A stretch of 64,000 nt of DNA from Escherichia phage Eps7, in sequence record NC_010583.1; one strand, written 5' to 3'. The notes under the pieces are model-generated. The model was not told the DNA's origin. It ran no database searches and saw nothing but the letters and a program-made list of their open reading frames with translations. This document shows, one piece after another, positions 36,591 to 62,349 of this stretch. The translations under genes and the position numbers were made by a program. The first letter of the stretch is position 1, and each line of letters starts with the position of its first letter.

Positions 36591-36619
36591 GTTGCTTCTC
36601 CAGTTCAATTTATGTAATA

Positions 36620-36648
36620 ATTATACAGAACTTTAAGGATTTAAGCAA
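36620..36648 (-). promoter_or_regulatory. sigma70-type early promoter
   Basis: ATTATA 36620-36625, AAGCAA 36643-36648, 17-bp spacer. Confidence 0.6.
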
Positions 36649-36928: not shown

Positions 36929-36930
36929 AT

Positions 36931-37005
36931 TGGTGCAACCTGTACGTAACGATCGTACCTCTTCTCCTTTTCAGGGAGACGCTAATCCATCTCAGCTAAA
37001 GTCGC
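36931..37005 (-). tRNA. tRNA-Phe (GAA)
   Basis: manual fold: anticodon stem TCTCC/GGAGA, loop CTGAAAA, CCA; atypical T-loop. Confidence 0.5.
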
Positions 37006-37011
37006 AAATAT

Positions 37012-37088
37012 TGGCAAACCTACTAGGACTCGAACCTAGACCGTACGGTTTTGGAGACCGACATGCTGTCCAGTAACACTCTAGGAAT
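37012..37088 (-). tRNA. tRNA-like, anticodon probably CCA (Trp); acceptor stem imperfect
   Basis: T-arm CTAGGTTCGAGTCCTAG, anticodon arm CGGTCTCCAAAACCG, CCA end; 5' acceptor pairs poorly. Confidence 0.4.
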
Positions 37089-37096
37089 GCAGAAAT

Positions 37097-37173
37097 TGGC
37101 GTCCTGTGCGGGGATCGAACCCGCAAATCCTACCTTGAAAGGGTAGTGACTTTACCAGTTTGTCTAACAGGAC
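37097..37173 (-). tRNA. tRNA-Glu (TTC)
   Basis: manual fold: acceptor GTCCTGT/ACAGGAC, anticodon stem CTACC/GGTAG, loop CTTTCAA, CCA. Confidence 0.7.
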
Positions 37174-37180
37174 TTAAATT

Positions 37181-37271
37181 TGGTGTTGGATGATGGAGTC
37201 GAACCACCCGAGACCCTTCCGAGTCGGCAGATTTACAGTCTGCTTCGCTACCTCTACGATACTAATCCAAC
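37181..37271 (-). tRNA. tRNA-Tyr (GTA), long variable arm
   Basis: manual fold: anticodon stem GCAGA/TCTGC, loop CTGTAAA, 91 nt, CCA. Confidence 0.65.
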
Positions 37272-37396
37272 ATATTTGAATGAAAAATAAGTCGGTTAAA
37301 CTCAAGGTGGAATATTTCAGGAAATCCTGACTTTACCCCTAAAAGCAACTCGCTTAGTTACTTCTCATTCAGATATGTTTTCCAAATTAGATAACT

Positions 37397-37426
37397 ATTA
37401 TATCAAGTTTTGAAGGACTGAGCAAG
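37397..37426 (-). promoter_or_regulatory. sigma70-type promoter overlapping a hairpin
   Basis: ATTATA 37397-37402, AGCAAG 37421-37426; inverted repeat CTGAGCAAG...CTTGCTCAG 37418-37450. Confidence 0.45.
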
Positions 37427-37461
37427 TCAAATTTTAAAGAACTTGCTCAGTGCTATATCAG

Positions 37462-37737
37462 TTACTCGAAGCTAGGAGTGACACTCAGTTTGAATGGAAG
37501 CTCGAACACTTCTTCATAATCATCATTGAGCGTAATTACACGACCTTCTAGCTTAGTCATGGTGATTTCGATATCAGCCTCTGCATCAGGAGCCATACCA
37601 GCTTCCACACATTTAGCTTTGACTTCCGGCAGAAGTTCTACATCGTAGAAATAAAGCCATTCAATCTCACCTTCCCAGCCACCCCAGGATTTACAAACAG
37701 CACTTTCAACACCAGTTGCAGTAACACGTTTTGACAT
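37462..37737 (-). CDS. hypothetical acidic protein
   Basis: 91-aa ORF 31 nt downstream of promoter. Confidence 0.5.
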   Translation of the reverse strand: MSKRVTATGVESAVCKSWGGWEGEIEWLYFYDVELLPEVKAKCVEAGMAPDAEADIEITMTKLEGRVITLNDDYEEVFELPFKLSVTPSFE

Positions 37738-37767
37738 TCGTTAACTCCTTCATCAATTTATATAACT

Positions 37768-37797
37768 ATTATAGCAGAAATCTTAAGTAAAAAGCAA
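37768..37797 (-). promoter_or_regulatory. sigma70-type early promoter
   Basis: ATTATA 37768-37773, AAGCAA 37792-37797, 18-bp spacer. Confidence 0.6.
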
Positions 37798-37827
37798 GTA
37801 CATTTTTAAAATTTCTGCTTGGAGGAG

Positions 37828-38034
37828 TTAAACTCCTGATTCTTCAGCCAGATCAAGCCCAACCAACGTGATTGCCATAATAGCCGCGCCATGTTCTTTC
37901 TCTCCTAGCTCTTTGGCTTGAGTGAGAATATTTAGGAACTGCTTTTGAAAATCTGCAACTTCTTCTGTCATGCCTGCTTCAGCAATAATTCCTTTCAGCA
38001 TAAAGCGTTGTGCCGTAATTTCAGGATTAGCCAT
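37828..38034 (-). CDS. hypothetical protein
   Basis: 68-aa ORF. Confidence 0.45.
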   Translation of the reverse strand: MANPEITAQRFMLKGIIAEAGMTEEVADFQKQFLNILTQAKELGEKEHGAAIMAITLVGLDLAEESGV

Positions 38035-38185
38035 TTATTATCTCCAGTTATTTAGAATGTAAGCCAAACTTAGGATCATAGCGATCGTAAGTCGTACCAT
38101 TAGTTGAAGCCTTGATGCTATGAAAACGACAGTACATAAATTTACGTAGTGCTTTCTTAATAGCTTTCATTTTATTTCCTTAATT

Positions 38186-38262
38186 TGGTAGGGGTGGTGG
38201 GATTCGAACCCACAAAACCTGAATTTTAAGTCCAGTACCTATGCCAATTCGATTACACCCCC
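38186..38262 (-). tRNA. tRNA with anticodon TAA (Leu-type) but short variable arm
   Basis: manual fold: T-arm GTGGGTTCGAATCCCAC, anticodon stem CTGGA/TTCAG, loop CTTAAAA, CCA; D-arm irregular. Confidence 0.45.
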
Positions 38263-38270
38263 ATGTAATC

Positions 38271-38608
38271 TTAGCGAATCTCTAAACCCTGGAAATATCG
38301 AGGGAATGGAGAGCCAACTTCAAAATTGATGCCCCAATTAAGTTCAACGAGTTCAGATTTATTAAGATCTAGGCCATTACCTTCAAAGATATAGCCGTAA
38401 ACCGCAGGGAACATAGCTGCTAGATCTTCCATATCGGAATGAGCATTGTGTTCTTCACGGAACTGCTCAACTCTTCAATAGAACTTTTCTAGGAGACTCA
38501 GGTACGATGAACGTTACCACATCAGTAGAATCATCGGTACGATACACCGTAGCTTGGAACAAGCCAACACCTAAAAGGTTTATTGCCGGAGTAGTAAAAA
38601 TATCCATC
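38271..38608 (-). CDS. hypothetical protein, frame interrupted near 38470
   Basis: two adjacent protein-like frames (MDIFTTPAINLL... and ...EQFREEHNAHSDMEDL...) each below track threshold. Confidence 0.35.
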
Positions 38609-38794
38609 TTAGCCTCGCTCAATGTCTAGACAAATTGCATATTCAGGGTTGATACCAGTACCTTTACATGTAGGACATTCCCATTCTCTACAGAAAATAT
38701 CCCCAGGTTCTGCATCATCCTGCCTACCACTACCATGACAGTCCTTACACCGACATTCTTCTAATGCTTTCTTCATTTCATAGAATCTAGACAT
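38609..38794 (-). CDS. zinc-finger-like small protein
   Basis: 61-aa ORF with CxxC...CxxC. Confidence 0.5.
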   Translation of the reverse strand: MSRFYEMKKALEECRCKDCHGSGRQDDAEPGDIFCREWECPTCKGTGINPEYAICLDIERG

Positions 38795-38811
38795 ATAGTC
38801 TCCTAGTTAAT

Positions 38812-38889
38812 TGGTGGCTCCCGGAGGATTCGAACCTACCTACCTTTCGCTTATGAGGCGACGGCTCATACCAAATGAGCTTGAGAACC
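38812..38889 (-). tRNA. tRNA with anticodon CAT (third CAT tRNA)
   Basis: manual fold: D-stem GCTC/GAGC, anticodon loop CTCATAA, T-loop TTCGAAT, CCA. Confidence 0.55.
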
Positions 38890-38894
38890 AAATT

Positions 38895-38988
38895 TGGAGG
38901 AAGATGCCAGATTCGAACTGGCACACCGTGTCTCCACAGCTACTGGCTGTTTAGCAAACAGCTCCCTTACCTTTAGGGTTAATCTTCC
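38895..38988 (-). tRNA. tRNA-Ser (GCT), long variable arm
   Basis: manual fold: acceptor GGAAGAT/ATCTTCC, anticodon loop TTGCTAA, T-arm GCCAGTTCGAATCTGGC, 94 nt, CCA. Confidence 0.6.
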
Positions 38989-39002
38989 GAATTTATGAAT
39001 AT

Positions 39003-39031
39003 ATTATACAGAAAATTTCGGCATTAAGCAA
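39003..39031 (-). promoter_or_regulatory. sigma70-type early promoter upstream of tRNA pair
   Basis: ATTATA 39003-39008, AAGCAA 39026-39031, 17-bp spacer. Confidence 0.6.
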
Positions 39032-39039
39032 GTGAAATT

Positions 39040-39336
39040 TTACTGAACATTGCACTGATATACTTGTTTGATACGTGTCACTGACTTCTTAGTTGGGTTG
39101 ATAGAAGAACCCTGCCACCAACGTGATTCTGAGCTGAGAACAGCCCCAGGAACAGCTTGTTCTTTTGGCAGAACAATATCAAAACACTGTTCACCCATAT
39201 TATCTTTAATGTGCGACCAAATGTCTAGAGTAAATCGTTCTAGCTTATTACAAACTTGAACTTGACAAAGTTCCTGTTGTGGAGCAGCAAATACAGAAGT
39301 AGATACTAGAGTCAATGCAAGTACAATGCGTTTCAT
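39040..39336 (-). CDS. secreted/periplasmic protein (signal peptide)
   Basis: track ORF trimmed to MKRIVLALTLVSTSVFA start; MREESNM prefix is a leader artefact. Confidence 0.5.
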   Translation of the reverse strand: MKRIVLALTLVSTSVFAAPQQELCQVQVCNKLERFTLDIWSHIKDNMGEQCFDIVLPKEQAVPGAVLSSESRWWQGSSINPTKKSVTRIKQVYQCNVQ

Positions 39337-39366
39337 ATTTGATTCCTCTCTCAAATTTATAAATAT

Positions 39367-39394
39367 ATTATACAGAAATTTTCTATATAAGCAA
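39367..39394 (-). promoter_or_regulatory. sigma70-type early promoter
   Basis: ATTATA 39367-39372, AAGCAA 39389-39394, 16-bp spacer. Confidence 0.55.
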
Positions 39395-39411
39395 GGTAAA
39401 AATTTATGTAT

Positions 39412-39434
39412 ATAGCCCTCTAAGCGAGGGCTAT
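39412..39434 (-). terminator. hairpin ATAGCCCTC-loop-GAGGGCTAT downstream of pnuC-like gene
   Basis: perfect 9-bp stem; T-rich tract is weak. Confidence 0.4.
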
Positions 39435-39441
39435 AACTACT

Positions 39442-40134
39442 TTATTTGTTAACGCGTACAAAGTATCCTTTATAGGCTCCCATAATAGAGTTACCTAAGA
39501 ATACTAGCCACATTGCTAGGATTGCATAAGATGCACCTGTAGATTGAGCAGTTACAAGCCAAATGTACACAGTACCAATGTTAATAGCAATCCAAATCAG
39601 CCATTGTTCAGCATATTGTTTGACCATAAGCCACATAGCAATCACACTACCTACCGCAGTAAATGCATCCAACATTGGGAATGGATCAGCCGTAGTAGCA
39701 AGGAAACTACCATAACCTAACGTGGCTACTGCTAAAATCCCTAGAGTCAGCAAAGCTTGAGCTTTTGTCAGAACTTTAGTTGGAACATCCGGCAGATTAC
39801 TTGGCTTATTTTTATGCCATAAGTACATTCCATAAAACTGCATAGGAACGTAGTATAGCAGGTTTAGTGCAGCGTTACCATAAAGATCTGCGTTTAAAGC
39901 TGTAATACCATATGTAAGAACACCCACTAAGCCCCAAATATAGTTGGAAACACGTCCTTTTGCAACCAGAATAACACAAACCACATTGGTTATTGCAGTA
40001 GCCCAATCTAGAGCTGTACCATTATAGTTTGCTAAACTAATAAAGGCGACTGCTATAAACAGCCACAGATATTCCAGAGGTTTCCAGTTTTTAAAGTCAT
40101 TTACGAGATAGTTAGTCATATTAAAACTCTCCAA
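39442..40134 (-). CDS. pnuC: PnuC-like nicotinamide riboside transporter
   Basis: 230-aa multi-TM ORF overlapping the end of the NadR-like gene; size and topology typical of PnuC. Confidence 0.55.
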   Translation of the reverse strand: MESFNMTNYLVNDFKNWKPLEYLWLFIAVAFISLANYNGTALDWATAITNVVCVILVAKGRVSNYIWGLVGVLTYGITALNADLYGNAALNLLYYVPMQFYGMYLWHKNKPSNLPDVPTKVLTKAQALLTLGILAVATLGYGSFLATTADPFPMLDAFTAVGSVIAMWLMVKQYAEQWLIWIAINIGTVYIWLVTAQSTGASYAILAMWLVFLGNSIMGAYKGYFVRVNK

Positions 40135-41176
40135 AGATAAAGTGATGAATCAGCCAGTCTACTGCGTTTACTGCTTCGTCCATACGAACTTTGTAGTCCG
40201 GAGAGTCGATGTAAACAGTACGCCCTTCAGGGAACTGATTTGGAAATTCTTTCTTCATCTGCTCGAACAGTTCAGAAGTAATTGAACGATCGGAGTTAAT
40301 ACGTAAACCATCATCTACCCACTTGACAGTAGGCGCTAGAACAATTACTAAATCGTAATGTTCTTCTTTTGCAATTGCTGTAACCACAGGGTTCTTACTA
40401 TGTTCATAAAGTCTGTGGTAGAACTCAGTAATAAAAGCATTTGTATCCACAAACATGATCTTATTTGCAGTACGTTTTGCTTCAAACTCTAGCTCTTTGT
40501 GTCTGAACGCAATTTTACTATAGTCTTCGCTGGTAAGCAGATTTTCGTTACCAACTAGATCAACTTCACAATACGTTCGGCCATATTCTTTTACCCACGA
40601 AGTGTTGTATAGCTTCGCAAGGTATTTTGTTAAAGTAGTCTTTCCTGAGCTTTCAGTCCCAATGATTACAACCTTACGCACGTAATCTTTACGAACTACG
40701 CTAGGAAGAAACTCCCAATACTTCATAAGATCATTACGAATCATTGTAGCTGAGATTGGAACACGAGTCCGATCAGAATCTACAATATAATGACCAAACT
40801 TCGGCAGATATTTCTTATATTCTGCATCATAGTCTAGTTCGCTAGAGAAAATGGTGATCTCAGGCAAATGTCCGTAATTTTCATTAAGGATTCTAGCATA
40901 TTCCGGCCAACCATTCGGATATTCAGGAATATCATCTTCAATAATGTACTCTACCGAAATGTGCTCAATATCCGCGTAAGTTTGTTCTAACCAACGAAGT
41001 CGATTCTTTAACTGTAATACTTCCTGATCACGTGTGTTCTGCTTATCCAGCCAACGATTATCATGACTAACTACAACAATAACTCGTTCACACATAGTTG
41101 CTGCTGTGTTTATTAGGTTAATATGACCACGCGTTAATGGCGCGAACTTACCAATTACTAGACCAGTCTTAATCAT
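40121..41176 (-). CDS. nadR: NadR-like bifunctional NMN adenylyltransferase / ribosylnicotinamide kinase
   Basis: N-terminal nucleotidyltransferase motif GKFAPLTRGHINLI and C-terminal Walker A GTESSGKTT; start trimmed to MIKTGLV. Confidence 0.65.
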   Translation of the reverse strand: MIKTGLVIGKFAPLTRGHINLINTAATMCERVIVVVSHDNRWLDKQNTRDQEVLQLKNRLRWLEQTYADIEHISVEYIIEDDIPEYPNGWPEYARILNENYGHLPEITIFSSELDYDAEYKKYLPKFGHYIVDSDRTRVPISATMIRNDLMKYWEFLPSVVRKDYVRKVVIIGTESSGKTTLTKYLAKLYNTSWVKEYGRTYCEVDLVGNENLLTSEDYSKIAFRHKELEFEAKRTANKIMFVDTNAFITEFYHRLYEHSKNPVVTAIAKEEHYDLVIVLAPTVKWVDDGLRINSDRSITSELFEQMKKEFPNQFPEGRTVYIDSPDYKVRMDEAVNAVDWLIHHFIFGEF

Positions 41177-41205
41177 ATTTGATTCCTCTCTCAAATTTAT
41201 AAATA

Positions 41206-41234
41206 TATTATACAGAGAATTTAGCGTTCAAGCA
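41206..41234 (-). promoter_or_regulatory. sigma70-type early promoter
   Basis: ATTATA 41206-41211, AAGCAA 41229-41234, 17-bp spacer. Confidence 0.6.
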
Positions 41235-41390
41235 ATCGAATTTTTAAACTTTTTAGTGGAAAAATCTCAAGGCATTTAGTGGTAGCACGTTGTTGCTACA
41301 ATAATAGTATATGTATTACTAAAGTAAATAAAGAATTAAATACTAAAGACCTTAGTTGAATAACTTATGGGCTTTTCTTTTGCCTTAAAT

Positions 41391-41427
41391 ACAGAAAAGC
41401 CCGCGCTCTCGGAGGAAACGCGGGCTT
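41391..41427 (-). terminator. rho-independent terminator
   Basis: AGCCCGCG-loop-CGCGGGCT stem followed on minus strand by TTTTCT. Confidence 0.65.
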
Positions 41428-41450
41428 GGTTCGAAGATTACGTGTAACTA

Positions 41451-42395
41451 TTACTTGTTACGCATATCCATGATCATTTGACCATCGTAGCCAGTACCAA
41501 CAACAGTCTGCGGTACACCACCTTGTATTTTTCAGCACGAAGCATTTCAAACTTCCAGCTGCTTCCAACGAATCATTTCAGGAGTAATGGTACGTTGCAG
41601 CGCGGCGTTAGCTTCAGCTTCTTTCTTAGCTGCGTACAGTTTAGCATCTGCGTCACGTTCGTTAGCTACTGCCATGTTTTCACGAGCAGAACGATCAGCT
41701 TCAGCTTGCTTAACTTTCTGCTGTGCTTCTTGTTCAACACGAGCCAATTCAGCTTTAGCGGCGTTAACTTGTTCTTCACGAACTTTTGTGTTTTGTACCT
41801 GTTCCATGATTACAGGTGGCAGAGTAATATCCTGAAGGAATACTTGCTTAACCGTGTAACCATAAGGACGCGCGTACTCTTCTACTTCTTGCTGAATAGC
41901 AGTTTGCAGTTGAGCCTGAATCTTAGCGTCGAACAGATCTTGTGCTTTTGGTACAGACTTACCAAACTCACGAATCGTAGATAGCATCTTCTCTTCAACG
42001 TACTTGTTCAGAGCTTGATCCTGAGTACCTGCGTTAACACGGTTCATAGGAGCTTTAGCACCATCAAACTGCAACATAACGGTAATGTCAACAGTGGACT
42101 TAAACTTATCCTGGCTAGGAACCTGAAGTTTATCCAGTTTCATGGAAATATCTTTCGTACTAAAAGTATCAAAAGAAGCAAATGGGTTAACAATATGGAA
42201 GCCTGGCAATACAGGATTAGGGCTAACTTTACCCAGGAAGGTTTGGGTCTTAACAGTACCATCCTGAACAACTGTGTAGGAATTGAGAGCCAGAATAAGA
42301 GCGCCAAGACCAACTACAGCACCAACACCCCAACGTTTGATAGTGCGAATTACTTTTTGCTCAGAAGTCAGTTCTTTAGTGTTTTTAGTAAACAT
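41451..42395 (-). CDS. SPFH/band-7 (stomatin/prohibitin-like) membrane protein, C-terminus frame-shifted
   Basis: 282-aa ORF with N-terminal TM and long Gln/Ala coiled-coil region; protein-like frame continues to stop near 41451. Confidence 0.5.
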
Positions 42396-42406
42396 ATATT
42401 TCCTTA

Positions 42407-42607
42407 TTATTTAGAAGAGTTAGCTACTACAGTTACTTTAGTTGCAGAAATAAACAGGCTAGCATCCACAGCAAATTCAGGAGCTTTGATATCTCCATTA
42501 TGAAATATGACTATACCGGAGACTACTTCAAATGCTAGTGCTGTAACATCGGTGGTATTTACTTGTGAATGTTCACCTACTACTTTTACTATATATCGTG
42601 TTTTCAC
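42407..42607 (-). CDS. hypothetical protein
   Basis: 66-aa ORF downstream of tRNA. Confidence 0.45.
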   Translation of the reverse strand: MKTRYIVKVVGEHSQVNTTDVTALAFEVVSGIVIFHNGDIKAPEFAVDASLFISATKVTVVANSSK

Positions 42608-42633
42608 TTTATTTTCCTAGCAGTTAATAAAAT

Positions 42634-42708
42634 TGGCCGAGGTGACAGGATTCGAACCTGCATAAAGGAATTTAGAAGACTCCTGCCTATCCCTTAGACT
42701 ACACCCCG
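42634..42708 (-). tRNA. tRNA-Arg (TCT)
   Basis: manual fold: acceptor CGGGGTG/CACCTCG, anticodon stem GGAGT/ATTCC, loop CTTCTAA, T-arm GCAGGTTCGAATCCTGT, CCA. Confidence 0.6.
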
Positions 42709-46612: not shown

Positions 46613-47385
46613 AATTATTTTCCTTTTGTTGTTCTCTCAAATTTATGAATATATTATACAGAATTTGGAGCTGAAAGCAAATCAAATTTTGATTTTTTTC
46701 GATCATGATGGCTACACAATAACTTTCAACTAAAGCATCGAATGCGGGATCATGTTTCACTGGATAGATTCCATAACGAATGGTATCCATCTTTTCCATT
46801 TTAGCTTTTGCCCAGCTAGCACCTTCGGCTTCTAGATCTTTATAGCTATAACCAGCTTGCATCCACTGATTACGGAAAGATCGAACGTTACCTAAGTTCC
46901 AGAATTTCCACGGAACTATTTCTTCATGGGTTCCGGCATGGAACGTATTTGCAGAGTAGATTGTCATATCAAACTCTGGGCCATTGCCGTAATACAGAGC
47001 ATTATCTCCTAGAGACAATTCCATAATGTTCTGAGCCATAGAGAAGGCAGCATAATTAGAGCCTACGTCATTAGTGCAGTGATGCTTACCATCACGGAAG
47101 GCAATCAGTTTAGGATTACGACCATTTAGAGCCTCCATAATATGGAGCGCAGATGGACTGTTTTTTAGCTTGATCCATCCAGAATGCAATAGTAGAGGCA
47201 GTTACCTTAGCACCCGCATTAAGCTGATCTTGAACGTCTAGAGTAACGAATACCAGATCAGGATCTTTATCAATTCCGTGCATCGCTACAAAAGCGAAAG
47301 AAGGCATTGCAATATGAGTAGTACCGCAATTTCCTGGAGTACCTAGAGATTCAATGTCCAGCATACCAAAGGGCTTGAATTTCAT
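46599..47385 (-). CDS. putative exonuclease-like protein, frame interrupted
   Basis: ORFs 47116..47385 (MLDIESLG acidic motif) and 46599..47189 overlap; 3' end of downstream piece runs into promoter. Confidence 0.4.
46653..46680 (-). promoter_or_regulatory. sigma70-type early promoter
   Basis: ATTATA 46653-46658, AAGCAA 46675-46680, 16-bp spacer. Confidence 0.55.
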
Positions 47386-53273: not shown

Positions 53274-53756
53274 TTATAAACTATCAAGCTCCAATAGTTT
53301 AGCATCGCGCCATTCTATAGCATCCTCTAATTCTTTAAATGTTTTAGTATGTTTTACACCTTTCCTAGCTATTTGGACTTGATAAGATCCACTTGCTTTT
53401 TGGTGTATATTTTTAATACCTAACTTATTGTCCTTATGTGCTCCAACGTTCTTTCCATTACTAAATCTGTTAGAGGCTAGTAAATTAATTGCTCTATTAT
53501 CATGACGTATTCTATTATCATGATCTACTTCTTTTGGGATGTACCCATGCGTAATATAGAATGCTAGGATATGTGCGTAGTATTTTGTACCTCTTACCTG
53601 CATTACTATGTATCCTGAGCATTTTTCCAAAGAGCCTGCCTCTTTGCCTGCAAACTTAGTATTAAATGATTTATCTTCTCTAGGTTTGTGGGTAAAGATT
53701 CCGGTTTCTGGATTATAGTCAAATAACTCAGCTATTTCTTTGTATTTTTCTTCCAT
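53274..53756 (-). CDS. HNH homing endonuclease
   Basis: 160-aa ORF with HNH motif EVDHDNRIRHDNRAINL; located between nrdA and nrdB. Confidence 0.7.
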   Translation of the reverse strand: MEEKYKEIAELFDYNPETGIFTHKPREDKSFNTKFAGKEAGSLEKCSGYIVMQVRGTKYYAHILAFYITHGYIPKEVDHDNRIRHDNRAINLLASNRFSNGKNVGAHKDNKLGIKNIHQKASGSYQVQIARKGVKHTKTFKELEDAIEWRDAKLLELDSL

Positions 53757-53811: not shown

Positions 53812-56204
53812 TTATAATTGACAACCACCAGATGCGCATCCAGCAGCAGCTTCCTCTCCTGCACCTCCACCATTTTCAGTGTTGAAGTTTGCATAATAAA
53901 AGGTTTTCCAACCGTACTTAACAGCAGTCATAAAGTCACGAACTACTACTGGGCCGGGAATGATTTCATTCTCGAACTTGGTGTAGTCATAGTACATATT
54001 CGTACTGATAGACTGGCTGAAGAATTTCTGCATGGTTGCTACCCATTTGATCCACTCGATACGATCTACATCATAAGCCAGTTTATAGCTCATTAATGTA
54101 TCCCAATCAGTTGCACCTGGAGCAATTGCAATTACTTTATTAACTGCACTACCCTTGATAGATACGATCTTACGGGGCGGTTCGATAGAGTTAGTAACAC
54201 CTAGCAGTACAGAGGAACTTTCACCTGGCATCTGAGCAGTCAGAACAGAGTTGCGCATACCATATTTCAGAATATCTGCACGCAGAGATTCCCAATCCAT
54301 TTCTAGACCTACAGTTACCAGTTCATCAACAGTTTTCTTGTACGTGTCGATTACCAGAGTTCCTTGCGAAGGCTTAGTACGATTAAACCAGTCACATGCA
54401 CCTTGTTCTTTAGCCAGACGTACAGAGGCTTTATGTAGGAAGTAGGACAGCTTTTCAGCTTCACGGTGAATCCAGTTACGTGCTTCAACACCTTCGTAAG
54501 CCAAACCTTCTGCTGCCATTGCACCTGCTGCGTTCATCAGACCAATACCAACGTTACGACGTTTCTTAGCCGTGTACTTCCATAGTTGGGAATGGGTAAT
54601 CCTGAATCTCGATGATTGTATCAACGAATTTCAGAAGGATGTAGCAAGTTTTCTCCCATTCAGCCAGAGATTCCATGCGGCCTAGTACAACACCACCTAA
54701 GTTACACAGAGATACTTCACCAATATCTTCTGGACGCATATCGTCTAACTGATCTTGGGTTTTATACAGTTCCGTAACGTGATGGAATGGACGGGTGGCT
54801 GAGTAATTCAACACAAAAGGGTTGGTCATACGAATCGGGTCAAGGAAGTTACCATGACGGTTAGATTCACCAATGTGATGAGCATACATACGCCCTGTTT
54901 CCATACGGATACGTAACCAAGTATCTAGGATTTCTTTTGCAGAGATTCTAGGAGCTGCTGGAATTGTTTTTCCTTCGTGGTCGATCTTTGTAAGAGAAGC
55001 CACACGTTTCTCCGCTGCCACGTAGATTTCTTCAAACTTAGCCTCATCTTCACCATAAAACGCTTCATGAACTTCTGGTGCGTAGAAGTAGGACATTAGC
55101 GTAATATCTTCGTTTTTCAGGTAACGTTTTAACAGAAGGTTGTTAAAGCTCAGAGAATAATCCATCTTATCGATTTTATTCTCGTCTGTAGCACGTTGCT
55201 GCTTAACCTGCATCAACTGAATGATTTCAGGATCGAAGTATGGATAAGACACAGTAGCAGAACCGCCACGGGTTTGCTGAGTGTTAGCTTTTACTGATCG
55301 GTCAATGTGTCGATAATATGGCAGTTTTCCGGAATGCGGGAATGCCCCATTTCGCACCGGATCAGCAATTGATCGGCTTTCAAGATGATACCCGATTCCC
55401 GCTCTGGCTGCGACCATTTTGAAGACGATGTGCTCGGCTGTGTCGATTGAATCCAGCGTGTCAGTGGAATCCACGAGACAGCAACTAGCAAATCCACGGT
55501 CACTAGAGCGCAGGCCAACCAGTGGCGGCGTAGGAACGTTGATTTTGTGGAGCGACATTGCATTGTAGAGGTCGATTGCATCTAGGATTGTCCAGTTAGG
55601 TTGAGATAACATCGCCATTGCCATACCCATGTAGGCAAACTGCGGGGTTTCATAAATTTCACCAGTTGCAATATTACGACGAGAATACTTGTCGAAGAAC
55701 TGTTTCAGTCCACCACTGGTGAATAAACGATCGCGATCATGATCAATAACTTGGTTCAGAGCGTCAAACTGATCATCGCTAATCCATGCACTCATGTCTT
55801 CCCAGCGCCAACACGAACCATATGATCGTGGAAGAAACGCAGAGAAGGGGTTCAAAGGAATCATATAGGCGTTTACGCATCTGCGCAAGACGTAATTCCT
55901 TTGCTACAGTATCATATGCTGGGTTGTCTTTGATAAGACCTTCAGCGGCTTTAATTAACACATCTTGGAGGGTATCGGAATCTACAACACCTTTTGGTAG
56001 ATTTTTCTGGGCAGACATAACGACGGCAGACCAACTTACGTCAGTTGCTTTACATGCCCATGCAGCCCAATCATTGAGTTTTTCAGGAGCAAAGTCCTGA
56101 ACAGTACCGTCACGTTTAATTACTTTTTCAATACTATGGCTCATTGGGGTTTCCTTTTTGTAGTTATCAGGATTTAGGAAATATTCTACTTTGTTTTGGG
56201 TCAT
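53812..56204 (-). CDS. nrdA: ribonucleotide reductase large subunit, frame interrupted twice
   Basis: three consecutive ORFs (55779..56204 with ATP-cone VIKRDGT, 54566..55888, 53812..54624 ending in Cys-rich tail); breaks near 55800-55880 and 54570-54620. Confidence 0.75.
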
Positions 56205-56947: not shown

Positions 56948-57138
56948 CTACAATTTTAAATAAGCCTATGATATTGCATTTAAATAAAAAATTTGCTTGC
57001 TTTTATTGGGAGATGTATGGTACTAGATAATCATTTTATATCGCGTACACGGGCGCGTGATTATACTATTTTTAATAGAGGTTGGCAAATAAAATTTTTT
57101 GACCCAGATCAATTTACAGAATGTTATAGTAAAATATT

Positions 57139-57168
57139 GTTGACATCCGCCTTCGAATGAGTTATAAT
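57139..57168 (+). promoter_or_regulatory. consensus sigma70 promoter (TTGACA-17-TATAAT) upstream of nrdD
   Basis: TTGACA 57139-57144, TATAAT 57163-57168; GGAGG RBS before ATG 57198. Confidence 0.65.
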
Positions 57169-59072: not shown

Positions 59073-59079
59073 TGAATCA

Positions 59080-59113
59080 GCCAGATCGCTAGTCGATCTG
59101 GCTTTTATTTTAT
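59080..59113 (+). terminator. rho-independent terminator after nrdD
   Basis: AGCCAGATCG-CTAGT-CGATCTGGCT followed by TTTTATTTT. Confidence 0.7.
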
Positions 59114-59141: not shown

Positions 59142-59453
59142 TTGATTTATAAATTTGAGAGGAGAAAGACTATGAGCAAATTGCTTCCGAAAGTAGATGT
59201 TTCCCATCTTGGAGAGCCTAGTGAAGAACGTAAGGCTCTTGATTGGCTAGGTGGATTTGATTATCGTCGTGTTGTTGCAACATGGAATACTGGTAAGGTT
59301 AAAAAATTTCGTGTGCATTATGTTGGCAAAGATAAGTGGCTCTGGATCGATTATGAAGAATCGAAGGGATCTACTAAGGCTGTAAAAGTCTATCGTATGA
59401 ATGGGTATTATTATGCTCATTGTGATAAGAATGAATTTACAGTACAGAACTAA
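59142..59453 (+). CDS. hypothetical protein
   Basis: 103-aa ORF with GAGAGG RBS; lacks CxxxCxxC so not an NrdG activase. Confidence 0.5.
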   Translation: MIYKFERRKTMSKLLPKVDVSHLGEPSEERKALDWLGGFDYRRVVATWNTGKVKKFRVHYVGKDKWLWIDYEESKGSTKAVKVYRMNGYYYAHCDKNEFTVQN

Positions 59454-59462
59454 GGAACAAGA

Positions 59463-59666
59463 ATGAAGAACGTAAGACATCTTAAATATCGCTTAATTTA
59501 CAACGGACGTATGGAAACAGAAGATCTAGCTCAGCTAGCGATCAATTCAGATGAAGTTACGGTTCGTGCTTTATCTATTGAGAAGCTGCGTGCTTCTTAC
59601 GAAAATCGTATTATGGAACTGGAGGAGAAACTGTATGGACTTCTTGAATCAGAATCTAAAAAATAA
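59463..59666 (+). CDS. hypothetical protein
   Basis: 67-aa ORF. Confidence 0.45.
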   Translation: MKNVRHLKYRLIYNGRMETEDLAQLAINSDEVTVRALSIEKLRASYENRIMELEEKLYGLLESESKK

Positions 59667-59829
59667 TCTAGAAAACATGCTTATGGAGCAGTGGAACTCT
59701 GGGTATAATGCTGGGGTGGCTACTTGTATTGCGGGGTTGGATATGCTTATTAAGCAAGAAAAGGTACGTCCAGAAGAAGCAATTCTACTCCAAAATATCA
59801 TCGAAGGATTCAAGCAAGGAATCGTATAA
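59635..59829 (+). CDS. hypothetical protein
   Basis: track ORF 59551..59829 trimmed to Met after GGAGGAG RBS. Confidence 0.45.
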   Translation: MDFLNQNLKNNLENMLMEQWNSGYNAGVATCIAGLDMLIKQEKVRPEEAILLQNIIEGFKQGIV

Positions 59830-60643
59830 TGCGTAGACTAATCGTTGTTAGTGGTGCAGGTTTGAGTGTAGATAGTGGTGTTCGTGCTTTCCGTACTGAT
59901 ACTGCTAGTGGTAAAGCGTTGTGGGATGATTATGACCTAGAAGAGGTATGTAATATTCATGCCTTTCGTGGTAATTTTACCATAAAACTCATATGTTTTA
60001 CAACAAACGTCGTGAAGAGTTACAAACTGTTGAACCTAACCTAGCTCATTTGCGTATTGGTGAATGGTATAAACGGTATCCAAATCAAGTGGTAAACCTT
60101 ACTACCAATGTTGATGATCTAATCGAACGTGCTGGAGTGCCGAGAGAAGATATACTCCATATTCATGGATATCTGAAAGAAATTATTGTAGAGCATGCGT
60201 TCGACCAGACACGTGATGTTATTGATATTGGGTATAGTTCTATTGATCCAGATGACTTTGATTGGGTTAAACCTAACGTTATCTTCTTTGGTGAGGTTGC
60301 TCCTGCCTATAAAACAATGTATGAGGTTTTTGATGGTATCACCAGTCATGATATGATCATCATTGTTGGGTGCTCTAACCAAGTAATTAACTTCTACTGG
60401 GAGCTATTTCCTGTTCTGAATCTTACTGCTGCAAAACTTATGGTAGTTAACTATTACGATAGTGCAGTAGCTATGGAACCAGGCTATCAGGGCATGACTC
60501 GTAGTGAAATGTATCAGTTAGAAGAACGTGGTATTCCTTACTGGAGTAAAGGTGCTGTGGATGCCTTTAGTGATCCCGATTTTATTGCTCGTGTGGAAGC
60601 TCATCTAGAAGGTAAACCCTATGTTCAACAAAAGCATGTGTGA
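59829..60643 (+). CDS. Sir2-family (sirtuin-like) protein, frame interrupted near 60000
   Basis: N-terminal VVSGAGLSVDSGVRAFR and downstream TTNVDDL...HIHG resemble sirtuin motifs; two overlapping frames. Confidence 0.5.
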
Positions 60644-60803
60644 TCTTTTAGTGTGGCCGGATGGTAGTTGGTGCTACCGTTTCGAATTTGCTACCGATGA
60701 TTTCTCATGGAAGAGTGATGATTTCTGTGTTATCTATGAAGATACAGCAGAATGGAAAGAGTTCCTTATTAAGGAGGGAGAATATGGTGAAGAAGATTTT
60801 TAA
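60621..60803 (+). CDS. small acidic protein
   Basis: 60-aa ORF. Confidence 0.4.
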   Translation: MFNKSMCDLLVWPDGSWCYRFEFATDDFSWKSDDFCVIYEDTAEWKEFLIKEGEYGEEDF

Positions 60804-60969
60804 GGGTATCTGGAAAGGTCTAGTATGGTTTGTCAACCTAATCGGTATGATTACCATTTATTCTCTGTTCCTATCTGTTATGTGGGGTAAAGGTGAATTG
60901 AAGGTTCCAGTTCCTTTTACTGATGAAGTTAAAGTCTGGACGTGGGATGCTACTGGTGGAAATAAGTAA
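60784..60969 (+). CDS. small membrane protein
   Basis: track ORF 60661..60969 trimmed to Met after AGGAGGGAG RBS. Confidence 0.45.
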   Translation: MVKKIFKGIWKGLVWFVNLIGMITIYSLFLSVMWGKGELKVPVPFTDEVKVWTWDATGGNK

Positions 60970-61462
60970 TACTCCTATAATTTTCCTGGATATTGATGGG
61001 GTGCTCAATTCGAGCATCTCTCACCATCATGCTCCAGATAGTGAAAAGCTATTCTTTGGTAGTGATTGGGTTTATAAGCCATTACTCCAGGCTTTTCAGA
61101 ACTTCCTTAAACCTTCTCCAATAATGATTGTTGGGGTATCTTCATGGTTTTCTGTACGAAACGAGATGGAGAACGTCCAGAGTATGACCGGGCTCGGTTT
61201 GATCGATCGTTTTCTTGGTACAACAGATTTTACTGGTGGCGGTTTATCTCGTGGTAATTCTGTCTTACGTTTCGTAGAAAAACATAAGCTCAAGCATTGG
61301 TGCGTCCTAGATGATGCTGGTGCTATGATGTATCAATTTCCTACTGTTATTGTAAATGGCAGGACTGGAATAAACCTTCAAGATTTAAATGCTATCAGCT
61401 ATATGCTGGAGTTTAGTCCAGATCTTGAAATGTGTAAGGCTCTTCAGAAACTCAAGGTGTAA
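60947..61462 (+). CDS. HAD-like hydrolase
   Basis: FLDIDGVLN motif near N-terminus; start chosen to avoid overlap. Confidence 0.5.
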   Translation: MLLVEISNTPIIFLDIDGVLNSSISHHHAPDSEKLFFGSDWVYKPLLQAFQNFLKPSPIMIVGVSSWFSVRNEMENVQSMTGLGLIDRFLGTTDFTGGGLSRGNSVLRFVEKHKLKHWCVLDDAGAMMYQFPTVIVNGRTGINLQDLNAISYMLEFSPDLEMCKALQKLKV

Positions 61463-61464: not shown

Positions 61465-61893
61465 ATGTTCGATAATCTTTTCATGAAAGAGGTAAACCCT
61501 ATGCTCCTCAACTTCTGGCGATCTCTCCCTGATGGTATGTATAATGAAACCATCAATCTGCTCAAGATTTGGTGTGAGAATAACGATATCTTCTTATCCT
61601 TTAAAGGCCCACTAGAGGAAGCTCCGTGTATTGGAGTTAGCGTGGATTTAGGGGAGGGAGTAGAAGAGATTGTAGACTGGAAAGAACTAGATGAAATGGG
61701 TCTGGTTTTTGCCTTGAACCATAAGCTGTTTATGCCTGCAAATCACCGTCTTATTGTAAACTATCGCACTGGTGAAGCTCCTGCTTTCCAGGTAAATGAA
61801 CGGGAGGGCTGGTCATATTCGCCCGAAGAAGTAAATGAGGGGATTCAGAAACTTCGTCGTTTCGGGTATATGATCCCAGGTTTAACTGCTTAA
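61465..61893 (+). CDS. hypothetical protein (tandem paralog A)
   Basis: 142-aa ORF; shares W.EL..MGL..ALN...F.P......R...TGE. ... PGL pattern with next gene. Confidence 0.5.
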   Translation: MFDNLFMKEVNPMLLNFWRSLPDGMYNETINLLKIWCENNDIFLSFKGPLEEAPCIGVSVDLGEGVEEIVDWKELDEMGLVFALNHKLFMPANHRLIVNYRTGEAPAFQVNEREGWSYSPEEVNEGIQKLRRFGYMIPGLTA

Positions 61894-61902
61894 GGAGGCA
61901 GA

Positions 61903-62298
61903 ATGGAACAAGTATTTTGGCGTCAGATAGATCCTAGTTTGGTAGAGCGTGCTGAGGGGCTCCTTGCACGTTGGTTGGGGGTTGACAAGGTTAGTGTAAC
62001 ATTTCCGTTTACTTCTGTAACAGACCCTAGTGTAGGTGTCTTTGTGGACGAAGATGAAGATGATGGTTGGGAAGCTGACTGGAATGAATTGTCCAGTATG
62101 GGCTTGATTGTTGCCCTCAACTTCTCTATATTCCACCCACGTGGTTTAGCTATTACACGTGATCCCGAAACCGGTGAATCCCCTTATCTTTTGCAAGTAG
62201 AAGATGATATTTGGGAGTACACCGAAGATATTCTCGAAGAAGCTAAAGGTCAATTAAATCGCATTGGGATCTATGTTCCAGGCCTAAATGATGATTGA
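61903..62298 (+). CDS. hypothetical protein (tandem paralog B)
   Basis: 131-aa ORF similar to 61465..61893. Confidence 0.5.
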   Translation: MEQVFWRQIDPSLVERAEGLLARWLGVDKVSVTFPFTSVTDPSVGVFVDEDEDDGWEADWNELSSMGLIVALNFSIFHPRGLAITRDPETGESPYLLQVEDDIWEYTEDILEEAKGQLNRIGIYVPGLNDD

Positions 62299-62322
62299 TT
62301 TTCATTAGTCCAATCCTGATTA

Positions 62323-62349
62323 CCGAGTCATTTTGGCTCGGTTTTCTCT
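62323..62349 (+). terminator. rho-independent terminator
   Basis: CCGAG-loop-CTCGG followed by TTTTCTCTG. Confidence 0.55.

What the first reader, a model, noticed from the sequence alone, without database searches (positions are those of the whole stretch)
59829..60643. Sir2-like (sirtuin family) protein encoded alongside the NAD salvage module
The N-terminus (VVSGAGLSVDSGVRAFR) and a downstream TTNVDDL...HIHG segment resemble the NAD-binding motifs of sirtuins. The frame is interrupted near 60000, so the call is tentative. A phage carrying both NAD-consuming and NAD-producing functions is worth a look.
Basis: partly seen in the sequence, partly recalled or inferred. Interest (0 to 1): 0.5.

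Follow-up and report, generated by a model that had tools for sequence, protein, structure and literature searches.

The report
Frameshifted T5-type phage sirtuin gene
This is the well-known Sir2-like (sirtuin) early gene of T5-family phages, broken here by the loss of one T from a run of five, so it is a real but ordinary gene whose biochemical role has never been tested.

Summary
Window 59829-60643 (+) is a sirtuin gene split into a 71-aa and a 216-aa ORF. The only lesion is a T4 run at 59975-59978, where related phages have T5. Restoring that base gives a 271-aa protein that matches Pfam SIR2 end to end (E 7.8e-23), PHROG 2162 (1e-115) and E. coli CobB (sequence 2e-18; Foldseek 2e-16 on a pLDDT 91 model).

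The window is a T5-like Epseptimavirus, and the gene is the ortholog of T5p100, annotated "SIR2 family" in the T5 record. Its closest relative, PSa2, shares the deletion, so it is probably real and recent, making a null or very weak allele.

The NAD-binding and catalytic residues and the class III Tyr-x-x-Arg pair are invariant in the phage clade. The four zinc cysteines are absent throughout.

The substrate is unknown. Homology favours a CobB-like lysine deacylase. Gene neighbourhoods fit the published prediction of NAD-dependent RNA-end repair: HAD_SAK_2 lies 303 nt downstream here, and other phages place it beside Rnl1/kinase/phosphoesterase or RlaP/NADAR genes.

The NAD salvage pair (PnuC/NadR, "NARP3") is 18.6 kb away, not adjacent. 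Verdict: already known, low interest.

The parts
59829..60643 (+). Whole Sir2-like gene, ortholog of T5p100. It is 815 nt here and 816 nt in intact relatives. The conceptual product is 271 aa.
   Evidence: Intact 816-nt CDS in bombadil, PMBT27, 8sent65, SB6, GRNsp8, PMBT31 and KFSSM.
59829..60044 (+). N-terminal ORF of 71 aa. Codons 1-50 are sirtuin (strand beta1, GAGLS loop, SGVRAFR). The last 21 codons are out-of-frame tail.
   Evidence: Pfam SIR2 17.4 bits on its own.
59975..59978 (+). T4 homopolymer, the site of the single-base deletion. Relatives have T5 (GGT AAT TTT TAC CAT = G N F Y H). A -1 slip of tRNA-Phe on U_UUU here would recreate the wild-type protein exactly.
   Evidence: Alignments. 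63-nt query: only PSa2 is identical, and the other listed records span 64 nt.
59993..60643 (+). C-terminal ORF of 216 aa. It carries Y-x-x-R (FYNKRR), PNxAH, TTNVD, the catalytic HG, KPNVIFFGE, GCS and VVN.
   Evidence: Pfam SIR2 54.5 bits. Invariant columns.
60947..61462 (+). HAD-superfamily phosphatase of the 'Swiss Army Knife RNA repair' type (HAD_SAK_2), ortholog of T5p103. It is the conserved partner of the sirtuin in T5-like phages.
   Evidence: Pfam PF18143 at E 2.2e-19. Next to Sir2 in 28 of 60 IMG/VR loci. Reversed order in Erwinia phage KEY.
60621..60969 (+). Two small overlapping ORFs between Sir2 and HAD: 60621-60803 (60 aa) and 60784-60969 (61 aa, hydrophobic).
   Evidence: PHROG 5116 and 11166, function unknown. 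Annotated in PSa2 and bombadil.
59172..59829 (+). Three small upstream ORFs: 59172-59453, 59463-59666 and 59635-59829. The last one's stop overlaps the Sir2 ATG (TAATG).
   Evidence: PHROGs 7953, 5236 and 5827, function unknown, with no Pfam hit.
61465..62298 (+). Two paralogous DUF7415 genes (61465-61893 and 61903-62298) that close the cluster.
   Evidence: Pfam PF24187 at 6.8e-37 and 3.1e-28.
59079..59103 (+). Terminator-like hairpin after nrdD. It marks the upstream edge of the Sir2 gene cluster.
   Evidence: 10-bp stem with 6 GC pairs and a T-rich tail. Consensus match only.
62322..62342 (+). Terminator-like hairpin at the downstream edge of the cluster.
   Evidence: 9-bp stem and T-rich tail. 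Consensus match only.
39442..41194 (-). NAD salvage pair: PnuC-like transporter (39442-40134) and NadR-like NMNAT/ribosylnicotinamide kinase (40121-41194). This is the 'NAD salvage module' of the finding, 18.6 kb from Sir2.
   Evidence: Pfam NMN_transporter at 3.1e-43; CTP_transf_like plus AAA_28. Same architecture as NARP3 of the T5-like phage Bas30 (PMC13464706).

Best explanation
The locus is the T5-family early gene for a single-domain, cysteine-less sirtuin (ortholog of T5p100, PHROG 2162). In this genome, and in its closest relative PSa2, one T has been lost from a T5 run at codon 50. Translation therefore ends after 71 aa. The remaining 216 codons are intact but lack an obvious ribosome-binding site. 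I read this as a recent, real, lineage-specific null or strongly hypomorphic allele of a dispensable accessory gene. At most, trace amounts of full-length protein could arise by unprogrammed -1 slippage on U_UUU. When intact, the enzyme binds NAD+ through GAGxS, N94, D96 and the other invariant positions, and uses His113 as general base. It should carry out the standard sirtuin two-step reaction: a substrate oxygen attacks C1' of the nicotinamide ribose and nicotinamide leaves, then the ribose 2'-OH resolves the adduct. By homology, the most likely substrate is an acyl-lysine on a host or phage protein. The invariant Tyr58/Arg61 pair, equivalent to CobB Y92/R95, suggests an anionic acyl group such as succinyl. 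Shown here: family membership, fold, motif conservation, the lesion and its distribution. Inferred: the chemistry, the substrate, and that the deletion is real. Sub-confidences: Sir2 identity about 0.97; deletion real rather than artefact about 0.85; protein deacylase as the chemistry about 0.45.
For: Family and fold: Pfam SIR2 81.8 bits over the full profile, PHROG 2162 at 1e-115, and E. coli CobB as best solved relative at 2e-18. The AF2 model has pLDDT 91.2 and pTM 0.89. Its best Foldseek hits are CobB (E 2e-16, TM 0.82), Sir2Af1 and SIRT5, all lysine deacylases. In 120 homologs F57, Y58, R61, R62, P70, N71, H74, T93, N94, V95, D96, H113, G114, K148, P149, F153, F154, E156, D175, G181, S183 and N208 are invariant. 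Y58/R61 align with CobB Y92/R95; I checked the numbering through the A76G and I131C mutant chains, and Y92 is named as an engineered position in the 6rxs title.

Lesion: T4 here against T5 in relatives. In the 63-nt search only PSa2 of 175 records is identical. Window and PSa2 are 99.0% identical in the gene and their C-terminal 216 aa are identical. Sir2 is the only ORF of at least 90 aa that is split in PSa2 relative to PMBT27 over 27 kb. The 22 substitutions shared by window and PSa2 against the others are 19 synonymous and 3 non-synonymous, and the window has no private substitution, so the gene shows no decay.

Dispensability: the Shivani genome announcement lists a Sir2-like regulator as the one T5 regulatory gene Shivani lacks (PMC4342426). 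A deletion fuses Sir2 to HAD in SelmaRatti, and DT57C looks the same. The gene is split at another position in KPN4.
Against: No sirtuin of this phage clade has been assayed, and I found no experimental paper. The zinc-binding Cys4 module that canonical deacylases need is absent from the whole clade. The Gln of TQN(I/V)D is replaced by Thr. The scores are far below the NCBIfam CobB equivalog cut-offs: 85 against 320 bits, and 98 against 243. The gene neighbourhoods point to RNA-end repair rather than protein modification. The window's assembly carries other frame breaks that are almost certainly errors: nrdA three times, A1 twice, plus dmp, a metallopeptidase and a hypothetical gene. An artefact at the T-run therefore cannot be excluded without reads.
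Confidence: 0.45

Rival explanations
1. Same gene and same lesion, but the intact enzyme works on broken RNA rather than protein. In this reading, proposed by Iyer, Burroughs and Aravind in 2022, it acts with the adjacent HAD_SAK_2 phosphatase. It transfers ADP-ribose from NAD+ to a terminal RNA 2'-phosphate and releases it as ADP-ribose 1''-2'' cyclic phosphate, as Tpt1/KptA does. That would heal tRNA ends cut by host anticodon nucleases.
For: HAD_SAK_2 (PF18143, E 2.2e-19) lies 303 nt downstream in the same terminator-bounded cluster. Of 60 IMG/VR loci encoding a relative, 28 have HAD next to Sir2 and 12 have Metallophos, Rnl1, cREC and a PNK-like kinase next to Sir2. That linkage survives about 50% sequence divergence and local inversions (Pfam labels). 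Erwinia phage KEY keeps the HAD-Sir2 adjacency in reversed order. A distant Cys-less relative sits between RlaP and NADAR in a T4-like contig. The Tpt1 reaction is formally parallel to sirtuin chemistry, and the invariant Tyr/Arg anion pocket could hold a phosphate (inference). The prediction is published for the T5-like phage SP15 (PMC9503650; taxonomy). The phage also carries 29 tRNA genes, so tRNA supply matters to it.
Against: No sirtuin has been shown to act on RNA. Every structural neighbour is a protein deacylase. The family is acidic (median pI 5.2, range 4.6-6.1), which is unusual for RNA-binding enzymes; this is weak evidence. Twenty of the 60 loci show none of the markers I searched for near Sir2, and Pfam scans of two such contexts found no repair genes. 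I saw no RNA ligase or polynucleotide kinase within the stretches of T5-like genomes I examined. Phage counter-defence genes also cluster without sharing a pathway. Two Sir2 alleles only 53% identical pair with a 96-98% identical HAD, so no specific protein-protein fit is required.
Confidence: 0.3
2. The frame interruption is a sequencing or assembly artefact, and the real phage has T5 and an intact, functional sirtuin gene.
For: The lesion is a one-base length change in a homopolymer. The window has at least eight other frame-breaking indels in five conserved genes, including nrdA and A1, and none of these is shared with PSa2 or PMBT27. The rest of the gene is undamaged.
Against: The same T4 is present in PSa2, an independently deposited genome about 2% divergent overall (97.9% identity over 24 kb). 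PSa2 is the window's closest relative in this gene and is otherwise free of split ORFs in the compared region. A random error landing on exactly that base would be about a 1-in-10,000 coincidence. All the other listed assemblies, which come from many laboratories, read T5.
Confidence: 0.15
3. The split is functional. Either a programmed -1 ribosomal frameshift at U_UUU_A regulates sirtuin dosage, or the 71-aa and 216-aa products assemble into a two-piece enzyme.
For: A -1 slip of tRNA-Phe from UUU (59976-78) to UUU (59975-77) would give exactly the wild-type sequence GNFYHKTH. The break falls in a surface position where other family members tolerate a 25-35 aa insertion.
Against: There is no X_XXY_YYZ heptamer. 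The 80 nt downstream fold no better than shuffles (z = -0.88). The shift is absent from all other listed relatives, so there has been no selection for a stimulator. No Shine-Dalgarno-like sequence precedes the ATG at 59993. The N-fragment would remove strand beta1 and the GAGxS loop from the Rossmann core.
Confidence: 0.03
4. The protein is not a deacylase or repair enzyme. It would instead be an NAD+ glycohydrolase or ADP-ribosyltransferase used for host takeover or superinfection exclusion, like the SIR2 effectors of bacterial defence systems or SirTM.
For: It has the sirtuin fold with intact Asn, Asp and His and no zinc module, as in several defence SIR2 domains (own knowledge). It is a dispensable locus with two highly divergent alleles, which is typical of conflict genes.
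Against: There are no hits to any PADLOC defence model. No partner genes such as HerA, TIR, pAgo or Macro are nearby. The closest sequence and structure relatives are the canonical class III/U sirtuins. A free NADase would work against the phage's own NAD+-dependent ligase, annotated in PSa2, and against its NARP3 module.
Confidence: 0.07

Closest known systems
T5p100 and its orthologs (PHROG 2162, 'Sir2-like protein' of Demerecviridae)
   Same: The tblastn match to the T5 genome is 84% identical. The position is the same: nrdD, small ORFs, Sir2, two small ORFs, HAD (T5p103), two DUF7415 genes, D2. The length is the same (271-272 aa).
   Different: Here the reading frame is broken by a T5-to-T4 deletion at codon 50. 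The function of T5p100 itself has never been tested.
E. coli CobB (class III sirtuin; PDB 1S5P, 6RXJ)
   Same: CobB is the best sequence hit (2e-18) and the best structure hit (TM 0.82). It shares SG(I/V)RxFR, FYNxRR (Y92/R95 equivalent to Y58/R61), PNxAH, ERAG, the catalytic HxHG and the FGE motif.
   Different: Identity is only about 24%. The phage protein has no zinc cysteines, Thr instead of Gln in TQNID, 'IN' instead of 'YP' after the GxS motif, and a 60-residue C-terminal extension. It scores far below the CobB equivalog cut-offs.
SIRT5 (desuccinylase/demalonylase)
   Same: It shares the Tyr-x-x-Arg anion-recognition pair and the overall fold (the role of the pair is from my own knowledge of Du et al. 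2011).
   Different: It is a eukaryotic mitochondrial enzyme with a zinc module. Only the N-terminal 116 residues align by sequence.
Sir2/CobB of KVP40-type Vibrio phages (phiSt2, phiGrn1)
   Same: These are phage sirtuins already reported to lack the zinc ligands and to coexist with phage NAD+ salvage genes (PMC5107563). tblastn identity over the core is 39-40%.
   Different: They belong to a different phage family, have a different salvage pathway (NAMPT and NMNAT genes, PMC5107563) and lack the C-terminal third.
Tpt1/KptA RNA 2'-phosphotransferase
   Same: Under the RNA-repair hypothesis the reaction is the same in outline: an NAD+-dependent two-step transfer onto an anionic oxygen, resolved by the ribose 2'-OH (PMC9503650).
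   Different: The fold is unrelated (ART-like rather than Rossmann). There is no sequence similarity, and the analogy is untested.
Defence-associated SIR2 NADases (ThsA, DSR1/2, SIR2-HerA, SPARSA)
   Same: They share the sirtuin fold, NAD+ as substrate, and a role in phage-host conflict.
   Different: There is no PADLOC model hit, the protein is single-domain with no sensor or partner, and it is encoded by the phage rather than the host.

Membership tests
Sir2/sirtuin family (Pfam PF02146) | Profile match above the curated gathering score over the whole domain | tested here: met
   81.8 bits against a cut-off of 24, profile positions 1-178 of 180, for the frame-corrected protein.
Sir2/sirtuin family (Pfam PF02146) | NAD-binding and catalytic motifs: GAGxS, (T/S)QN(I/V)D, and the HG general base | tested here: met
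   G9-A10-G11-L12-S13, N94, D96 and H113-G114 are present and invariant or nearly so in 120 homologs. The Gln of the second motif is Thr93 throughout the clade.
Sir2/sirtuin family (Pfam PF02146) | Sirtuin two-domain fold | tested here: met
   AF2 pLDDT 91.2 and pTM 0.89. Foldseek top 50 hits are all sirtuins, with E down to 1.9e-16.
Sir2/sirtuin family (Pfam PF02146) | Structural zinc bound by four cysteines in the small domain | tested here: not met
   No Cys in residues 114-150. The only widely conserved Cys residues in the family are C41 and C182. The model keeps a three-stranded ribbon there. Among the nearest 150 cluster representatives, Cys-less forms have Thr at the Gln position (35 T against 8 Q) and 4-Cys forms keep Gln (80 Q against 8 T).
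Class III sirtuins / CobB equivalog | Tyr-x-x-Arg acyl-carboxylate pocket | tested here: met
   Y58 and R61 are invariant in 120 homologs and align with CobB Y92/R95.
Class III sirtuins / CobB equivalog | NCBIfam equivalog or subfamily score above the curated cut-off | tested here: not met
   NF040867 85.3 bits against 320; NF001753 97.7 against 243.
Class III sirtuins / CobB equivalog | NAD+-dependent lysine deacylase activity | not testable with these tools
   This needs enzyme assays. No published assay of any phage-clade member was found.
T5-family Sir2-like gene (PHROG 2162, T5p100 orthologs) | Family profile match and conserved position in the early region | tested here: met
   PHROG 2162 at 1e-115. 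Synteny with T5, PSa2, bombadil and PMBT27.
T5-family Sir2-like gene (PHROG 2162, T5p100 orthologs) | Uninterrupted reading frame of about 271 codons | tested here: not met
   T4 in place of T5 at 59975-59978 splits the gene. The lesion is shared only with PSa2.
Predicted phage sirtuin RNA-repair system (Iyer et al. 2022) | Sirtuin of the phage clade linked to RNA-end-processing genes (HAD_SAK, Rnl1, kinase, phosphoesterase, cREC, 2H, Nudix) | tested here: met
   HAD_SAK_2 lies 303 nt downstream. Forty of 60 related loci carry such genes next to Sir2.
Predicted phage sirtuin RNA-repair system (Iyer et al. 2022) | NAD+-dependent removal of an RNA 2'-phosphate | not testable with these tools
   This is a biochemical claim, and no experimental report was found.
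Defence-type SIR2 NADase effectors | Match to defence-system SIR2 models, or presence of partner genes | tested here: not met
   Zero PADLOC hits. No HerA, TIR, pAgo or Macro genes in the cluster.
Programmed -1 ribosomal frameshift | Slippery heptamer, downstream stimulatory structure, and conservation of the shift among relatives | tested here: not met
   There is only a U_UUU tetramer. The downstream fold has z = -0.88. The shift is present in the window and one of the 175 related records found (PSa2), and in no other listed record.

The most novel reading that the evidence does not exclude
The cysteine-less 'TTNVD' phage sirtuins are not protein deacylases. They would be a new enzymatic class that uses NAD+ to strip 2'-phosphates, or otherwise to ADP-ribosylate and heal ends, on cleaved tRNA. 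They would work with HAD_SAK_2 in T5-like phages, with Rnl1/kinase/phosphoesterase in Mydovirus-like phages, and with RlaP/NADAR in T4-like phages, as a counter to tRNA-cutting host defences. Under this reading, the cassette-like allele swapping, deletions and frameshifts at this locus reflect selection by hosts that sense or are blocked by the enzyme.
Probability: 0.3. Interest if true: 0.7.

Novelty: already known. Interest (0 to 1): 0.22.

Why it matters
For this window it matters little. The gene is a long-annotated, widespread phage gene: 997 phage records hold a relative. Here it carries a trivial one-base lesion.

The wider family is still worth an experiment. It is a large, phage-specific sirtuin clade with no zinc site and no tested activity. 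It sits in genomes that also rebuild NAD+ (NARP3, or NARP1-like genes) and, in T5-like phages, use an NAD+-dependent ligase. Its gene neighbourhoods suggest a possible RNA-repair chemistry that would be new for sirtuins.

The natural null alleles would be ready-made controls for such tests. These are the window/PSa2 frameshift, the SelmaRatti/DT57C deletion and the KPN4 split.

Tried and rejected
1. Exact-pattern scans of IMG/VR for the T4 and T5 versions of a 32-33-nt stretch both returned nothing. The flanks were too specific, so the scans were uninformative. I replaced them with a 63-nt megablast against GenBank phages.

2. RefSeq rows saying 'Sir2 (x2)' first suggested that the split was common. 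It is not. The second 'Sir2' is the HAD_SAK_2 gene, mislabelled. phrog_18062, which is named Sir2, matches the HAD C-terminus at 1.4e-54 and Sir2 itself only at 4e-6, and Sir2-HAD fusion proteins exist in SelmaRatti and apparently in DT57C.

3. MET_P1-197_41 looked like a third T4 carrier because it spans 63 nt. The alignment shows T5 there, plus five other single-base deletions elsewhere in the gene. I treat it as an error-rich record.

4. Programmed frameshifting was rejected.

5. A defence-type SIR2 was rejected.

6. A dN/dS test for pseudogene decay was uninformative. The window has no private substitutions, and the differences are clustered recombination patches.

7. Literature searches for any assay of a phage sirtuin found only annotations and in-silico work.

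8. Domain fusions among distant relatives (WG repeats, LRR, tandem SIR2) gave no functional lead for the phage clade.

Only the whole-protein pI was computed.
Full report
**What is in the sequence**

Window 59829-60643 (+) holds two overlapping ORFs. The first, 59829-60044 (71 aa), begins MRRLIVVSGAGLSVDSGVRAFR. The second, 59993-60643 (216 aa), contains LTTNVDDLIERAG, HIHG and KPNVIFFGE. The second frame is already open from 59975, directly after a TAA at 59972-59974. Joining the frames at the T-run 59975-59978 gives a 271-aa protein.

This protein matches Pfam SIR2 (PF02146) at 81.8 bits, E 7.8e-23, over positions 1-178 of the 180-position profile. The C-terminal ORF alone passes the gathering score, and the N-terminal one alone does not. 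It also matches PHROG 2162 'Sir2' at 1e-115 and E. coli CobB at 2e-18 among solved structures.

**Where the window comes from**

The window is a T5-like phage (Demerecviridae, Epseptimavirus, EPS7 type). The locus is 97.8% identical to Escherichia phage PSa2 and about 97% identical to Salmonella phages PMBT27, 8sent65 and bombadil. In total 436 phage records match the 1.6-kb stretch.

The gene is the ortholog of T5p100, annotated 'NAD-dependent protein deacetylases SIR2 family; similar to KVP40 Sir2/CobB' in the T5 genome record. tblastn finds a relative in 997 of 50,697 phage records. The gene is already known as an annotation. I found no experimental study of any phage sirtuin.

**The frame interruption**

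Intact relatives have an 816-nt gene reading GGT AAT TTT TAC CAT (G N F Y H). The window has 815 nt, with T4 in place of T5.

- A 63-nt query across the site finds 175 records. Only PSa2 is identical. Every other listed record spans 64 nt except MET_P1-197_41.
- MET_P1-197_41 has T5 at this site but five other single-base deletions in the gene.
- In a 153-billion-gene index, the exact 216-aa product occurs only in PSa2.
- Window and PSa2 are sister sequences in this gene, at 99.0% against about 97.2% to the rest.
- The 22 substitutions that separate them from the others are 19 synonymous and 3 non-synonymous and lie in one patch (codons 120-266). The window has no private substitution. PSa2 has eight, in a second patch at codons 28-39.

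The gene therefore evolved under purifying selection, and the deletion is recent.

**Is the deletion real?**

The window's assembly is error-prone. Relative to PSa2, five other genes are split across frames: nrdA with three shifts, A1 with two, plus dmp, a metallopeptidase and a hypothetical gene. No window ORF is split in PSa2. Against PMBT27 over 27 kb, Sir2 is the only split ORF in PSa2, whereas three are split in the window.

Because an otherwise clean, independently deposited sister genome has the same base missing, I put about 0.85 on a real, inherited deletion and about 0.15 on an artefact.

A programmed frameshift is not supported. There is no heptameric slippery site, the downstream RNA folds no better than shuffles (z = -0.88), and the shift is not conserved. 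An unprogrammed -1 slip on U_UUU would recreate the wild-type protein exactly, so trace expression is possible.

The gene is also dispensable:
- The Shivani genome announcement lists a Sir2-like regulator as the one T5 regulatory gene that Shivani lacks (PMC4342426).
- SelmaRatti carries a deletion fusing Sir2 residues 1-103 to the end of the HAD gene, and the DT57C match suggests the same.
- Klebsiella phage KPN4 has the gene split at a different place.

**Anatomy of the protein**

In 120 homologs, all single-domain, 214-299 aa and from phage-like contigs, the invariant positions include F57, Y58, R61, R62, P70, N71, H74, T93, N94, V95, D96, H113, G114, K148, P149, F153, F154, E156, D175, G181, S183 and N208. 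GAGxS and SGxRxFR are more than 90% conserved.

Y58/R61 align with CobB Y92/R95. I verified the numbering through the A76G and I131C mutant chains shown. This is the pair that lets class III sirtuins bind anionic acyl groups (own knowledge: Du et al. 2011; Colak et al. 2013).

The zinc tetrad is missing. No Cys occurs in residues 114-150, and only C41 and C182 are widely conserved. The AlphaFold model (pLDDT 91.2, pTM 0.89) still shows a confident three-stranded ribbon there and a low-confidence cofactor loop around residues 22-36. Its best structural matches are CobB (E 1.9e-16, TM 0.82), Sir2Af1, SIRT5, Sir2Tm and SIRT2.

A profile search of 1.84 billion cluster representatives gave 160 hits at E up to 1e-30. 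Among the nearest 150, the Cys-less small domain goes with Thr at the Gln position of TQN(I/V)D (35 T against 8 Q), while 4-Cys relatives keep Gln (80 Q against 8 T). The protein scores far below the NCBIfam CobB equivalog cut-offs and has no match to defence-system SIR2 models.

It is therefore a member of the sirtuin family and of a phage-specific Cys-less subclade. It is not a CobB equivalog.

**Surroundings**

A perfect sigma-70 consensus promoter (57140-57168) precedes nrdD. Terminator-like hairpins at 59079-59103 and 62322-62342 bracket a tight plus-strand cluster. The cluster holds three small ORFs, Sir2, two small ORFs, a 171-aa HAD_SAK_2 protein (60947-61462; PF18143, E 2.2e-19) and two DUF7415 paralogs.

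The NAD salvage pair is elsewhere, on the minus strand 18.6 kb away: PnuC-like at 39442-40134 and NadR-like at 40121-41194. It has the architecture of NARP3, shown in 2026 to rebuild NAD+ from nicotinamide riboside and to defeat Sir2-HerA and DSR1 defences in the T5-like phage Bas30 (PMC13464706).

**What the enzyme does**

Nothing here or in the literature tests this. Two readings compete.

*Homology.* This says NAD+-dependent lysine deacylase. Every close sequence and structure relative is one, the general base and NAD contacts are intact, and the anion pocket suggests succinyl-type substrates.

*Genomic context.* This supports the published prediction (Iyer, Burroughs and Aravind 2022, PMC9503650) that this phage clade works in RNA-end repair. 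The sirtuin would remove a 2'-phosphate in a Tpt1-like reaction. The authors name the T5-like phage SP15 as the type for the sirtuin-HAD pairing. My own checks agree with the linkage:
- Of 60 IMG/VR loci encoding a relative, 28 have HAD_SAK_2 beside Sir2.
- Twelve have Metallophos, Rnl1, cREC and a PNK-like kinase beside it, through about 50% divergence and local inversions.
- Erwinia phage KEY has the order HAD, one ORF, Sir2.
- A distant Cys-less relative lies between RlaP and NADAR.

Against the context reading, 20 of the 60 loci show none of the markers I searched for, and Pfam scans of two such contexts found no repair genes. The family is acidic, with median pI 5.2. Counter-defence genes also cluster for reasons other than a shared pathway.

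I rank protein deacylase at about 0.45, RNA-end processing at about 0.30, and other NAD+-consuming roles at the remainder. A deacylase acting on repair or ligation enzymes would reconcile the two lines of evidence, but that is speculation.

**Seen on the way**

The Sir2 gene is an allelic cassette. IMG/VR locus L053 is 95-100% identical to the window on both sides but only 40-69% identical from about 59900 to 60620, that is, from codon 25 to the stop. Its protein is 53% identical and carries a roughly 30-aa insertion exactly at the position of the window's frameshift. Together with the deletions and splits listed above, this marks the locus as an accessory site with high turnover.

**Verdict**

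The finding is real and correctly interpreted, but it describes an already annotated, widespread phage gene carrying a one-base lesion. Novelty: already known. Interest: low for this window. The family's untested chemistry remains a reasonable experimental target.

Noticed in passing
window 59900-60620; locus L053 8070-8849 (also L054, L056, L058): The Sir2 gene is an allelic cassette. L053 is 95-100% nt-identical to the window on both flanks but only 40-69% identical from codon 25 to the stop of Sir2. The alternative allele (283 aa, 53% aa identity) carries a roughly 30-aa insertion at exactly the position of the window's frameshift, while the adjacent HAD gene stays 96-98% identical.
   Followed up: partly
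window 60947-61462; L002 4548-5063; L019 3501-3950: RefSeq labels the HAD_SAK_2 gene 'Sir2 (NAD-dependent deacetylase)'. phrog_18062, which is named Sir2, matches the HAD C-terminus (1.4e-54) and barely matches Sir2 (4e-6). This is probably because SelmaRatti, and apparently DT57C, carry a deletion that fuses the Sir2 N-terminus to the HAD C-terminus.
   Followed up: yes
window 53815-56204 (-), 1615-3277 (-), 42-772 (-), 46695-47385 (-), 38274-38607 (-): Five conserved genes are split over two or three frames relative to PSa2 and PMBT27: nrdA, A1, dmp, a metallopeptidase and a hypothetical gene. The causes are single-base indels, mostly in short homopolymers. These look like assembly errors in the window's source record.
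   Followed up: partly
window 39442-41194 (-): A PnuC-like transporter and an HTH-less NadR-like NMNAT/kinase overlap by 14 nt. This is the same two-gene architecture as the recently characterised NARP3 counter-defence module of phage Bas30 (PMC13464706).
   Followed up: partly
window 53274-53756 (-): A 160-aa HNH_3 homing-endonuclease ORF sits between nrdB and nrdA. It is present in PMBT27 but absent from PSa2.
   Followed up: partly
window 29711-42708 (-): There are 29 tRNA genes covering 20 amino acids, all on the minus strand and interleaved with small ORFs. The PnuC/NadR pair lies between the main array and the last tRNA-Arg gene at 42634-42708.
   Followed up: no
window 61465-61893 and 61903-62298 (+): Two tandem paralogs each carry two DUF7415 repeats directly after the HAD gene. 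The pair is retained even where Sir2 and HAD are deleted (SelmaRatti) or where HAD is missing (L070, L072, L073).
   Followed up: no
window 59635-59829 (+); L001 9235-9429: PSa2 annotates the 64-aa ORF just upstream of Sir2 as 'nicotinamide mononucleotide transporter'. It has no Pfam hit and matches only the unknown-function PHROG 5827, so the label looks spurious.
   Followed up: partly
L006/L007 1-1133 and 12023-12720; L080 4917-7181; L008 1940-2215: In other phage families the Sir2 gene sits among other NAD/ADP-ribose or counter-defence genes. Examples are NAPRTase-like plus Prs-like genes (NARP1-like) and NADAR in Klebsiella Mydovirus, RlaP and NADAR in a T4-like contig, and an Acb2/Tad1-like gene in ECO340P2.
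   Followed up: partly
window 57060-57168: Divergent promoter-like sites lie between phoH and nrdD: a perfect 12/12 sigma-70 consensus on the plus strand (57140-57168) and an 11/12 match on the minus strand (57088-57060).
   Followed up: no
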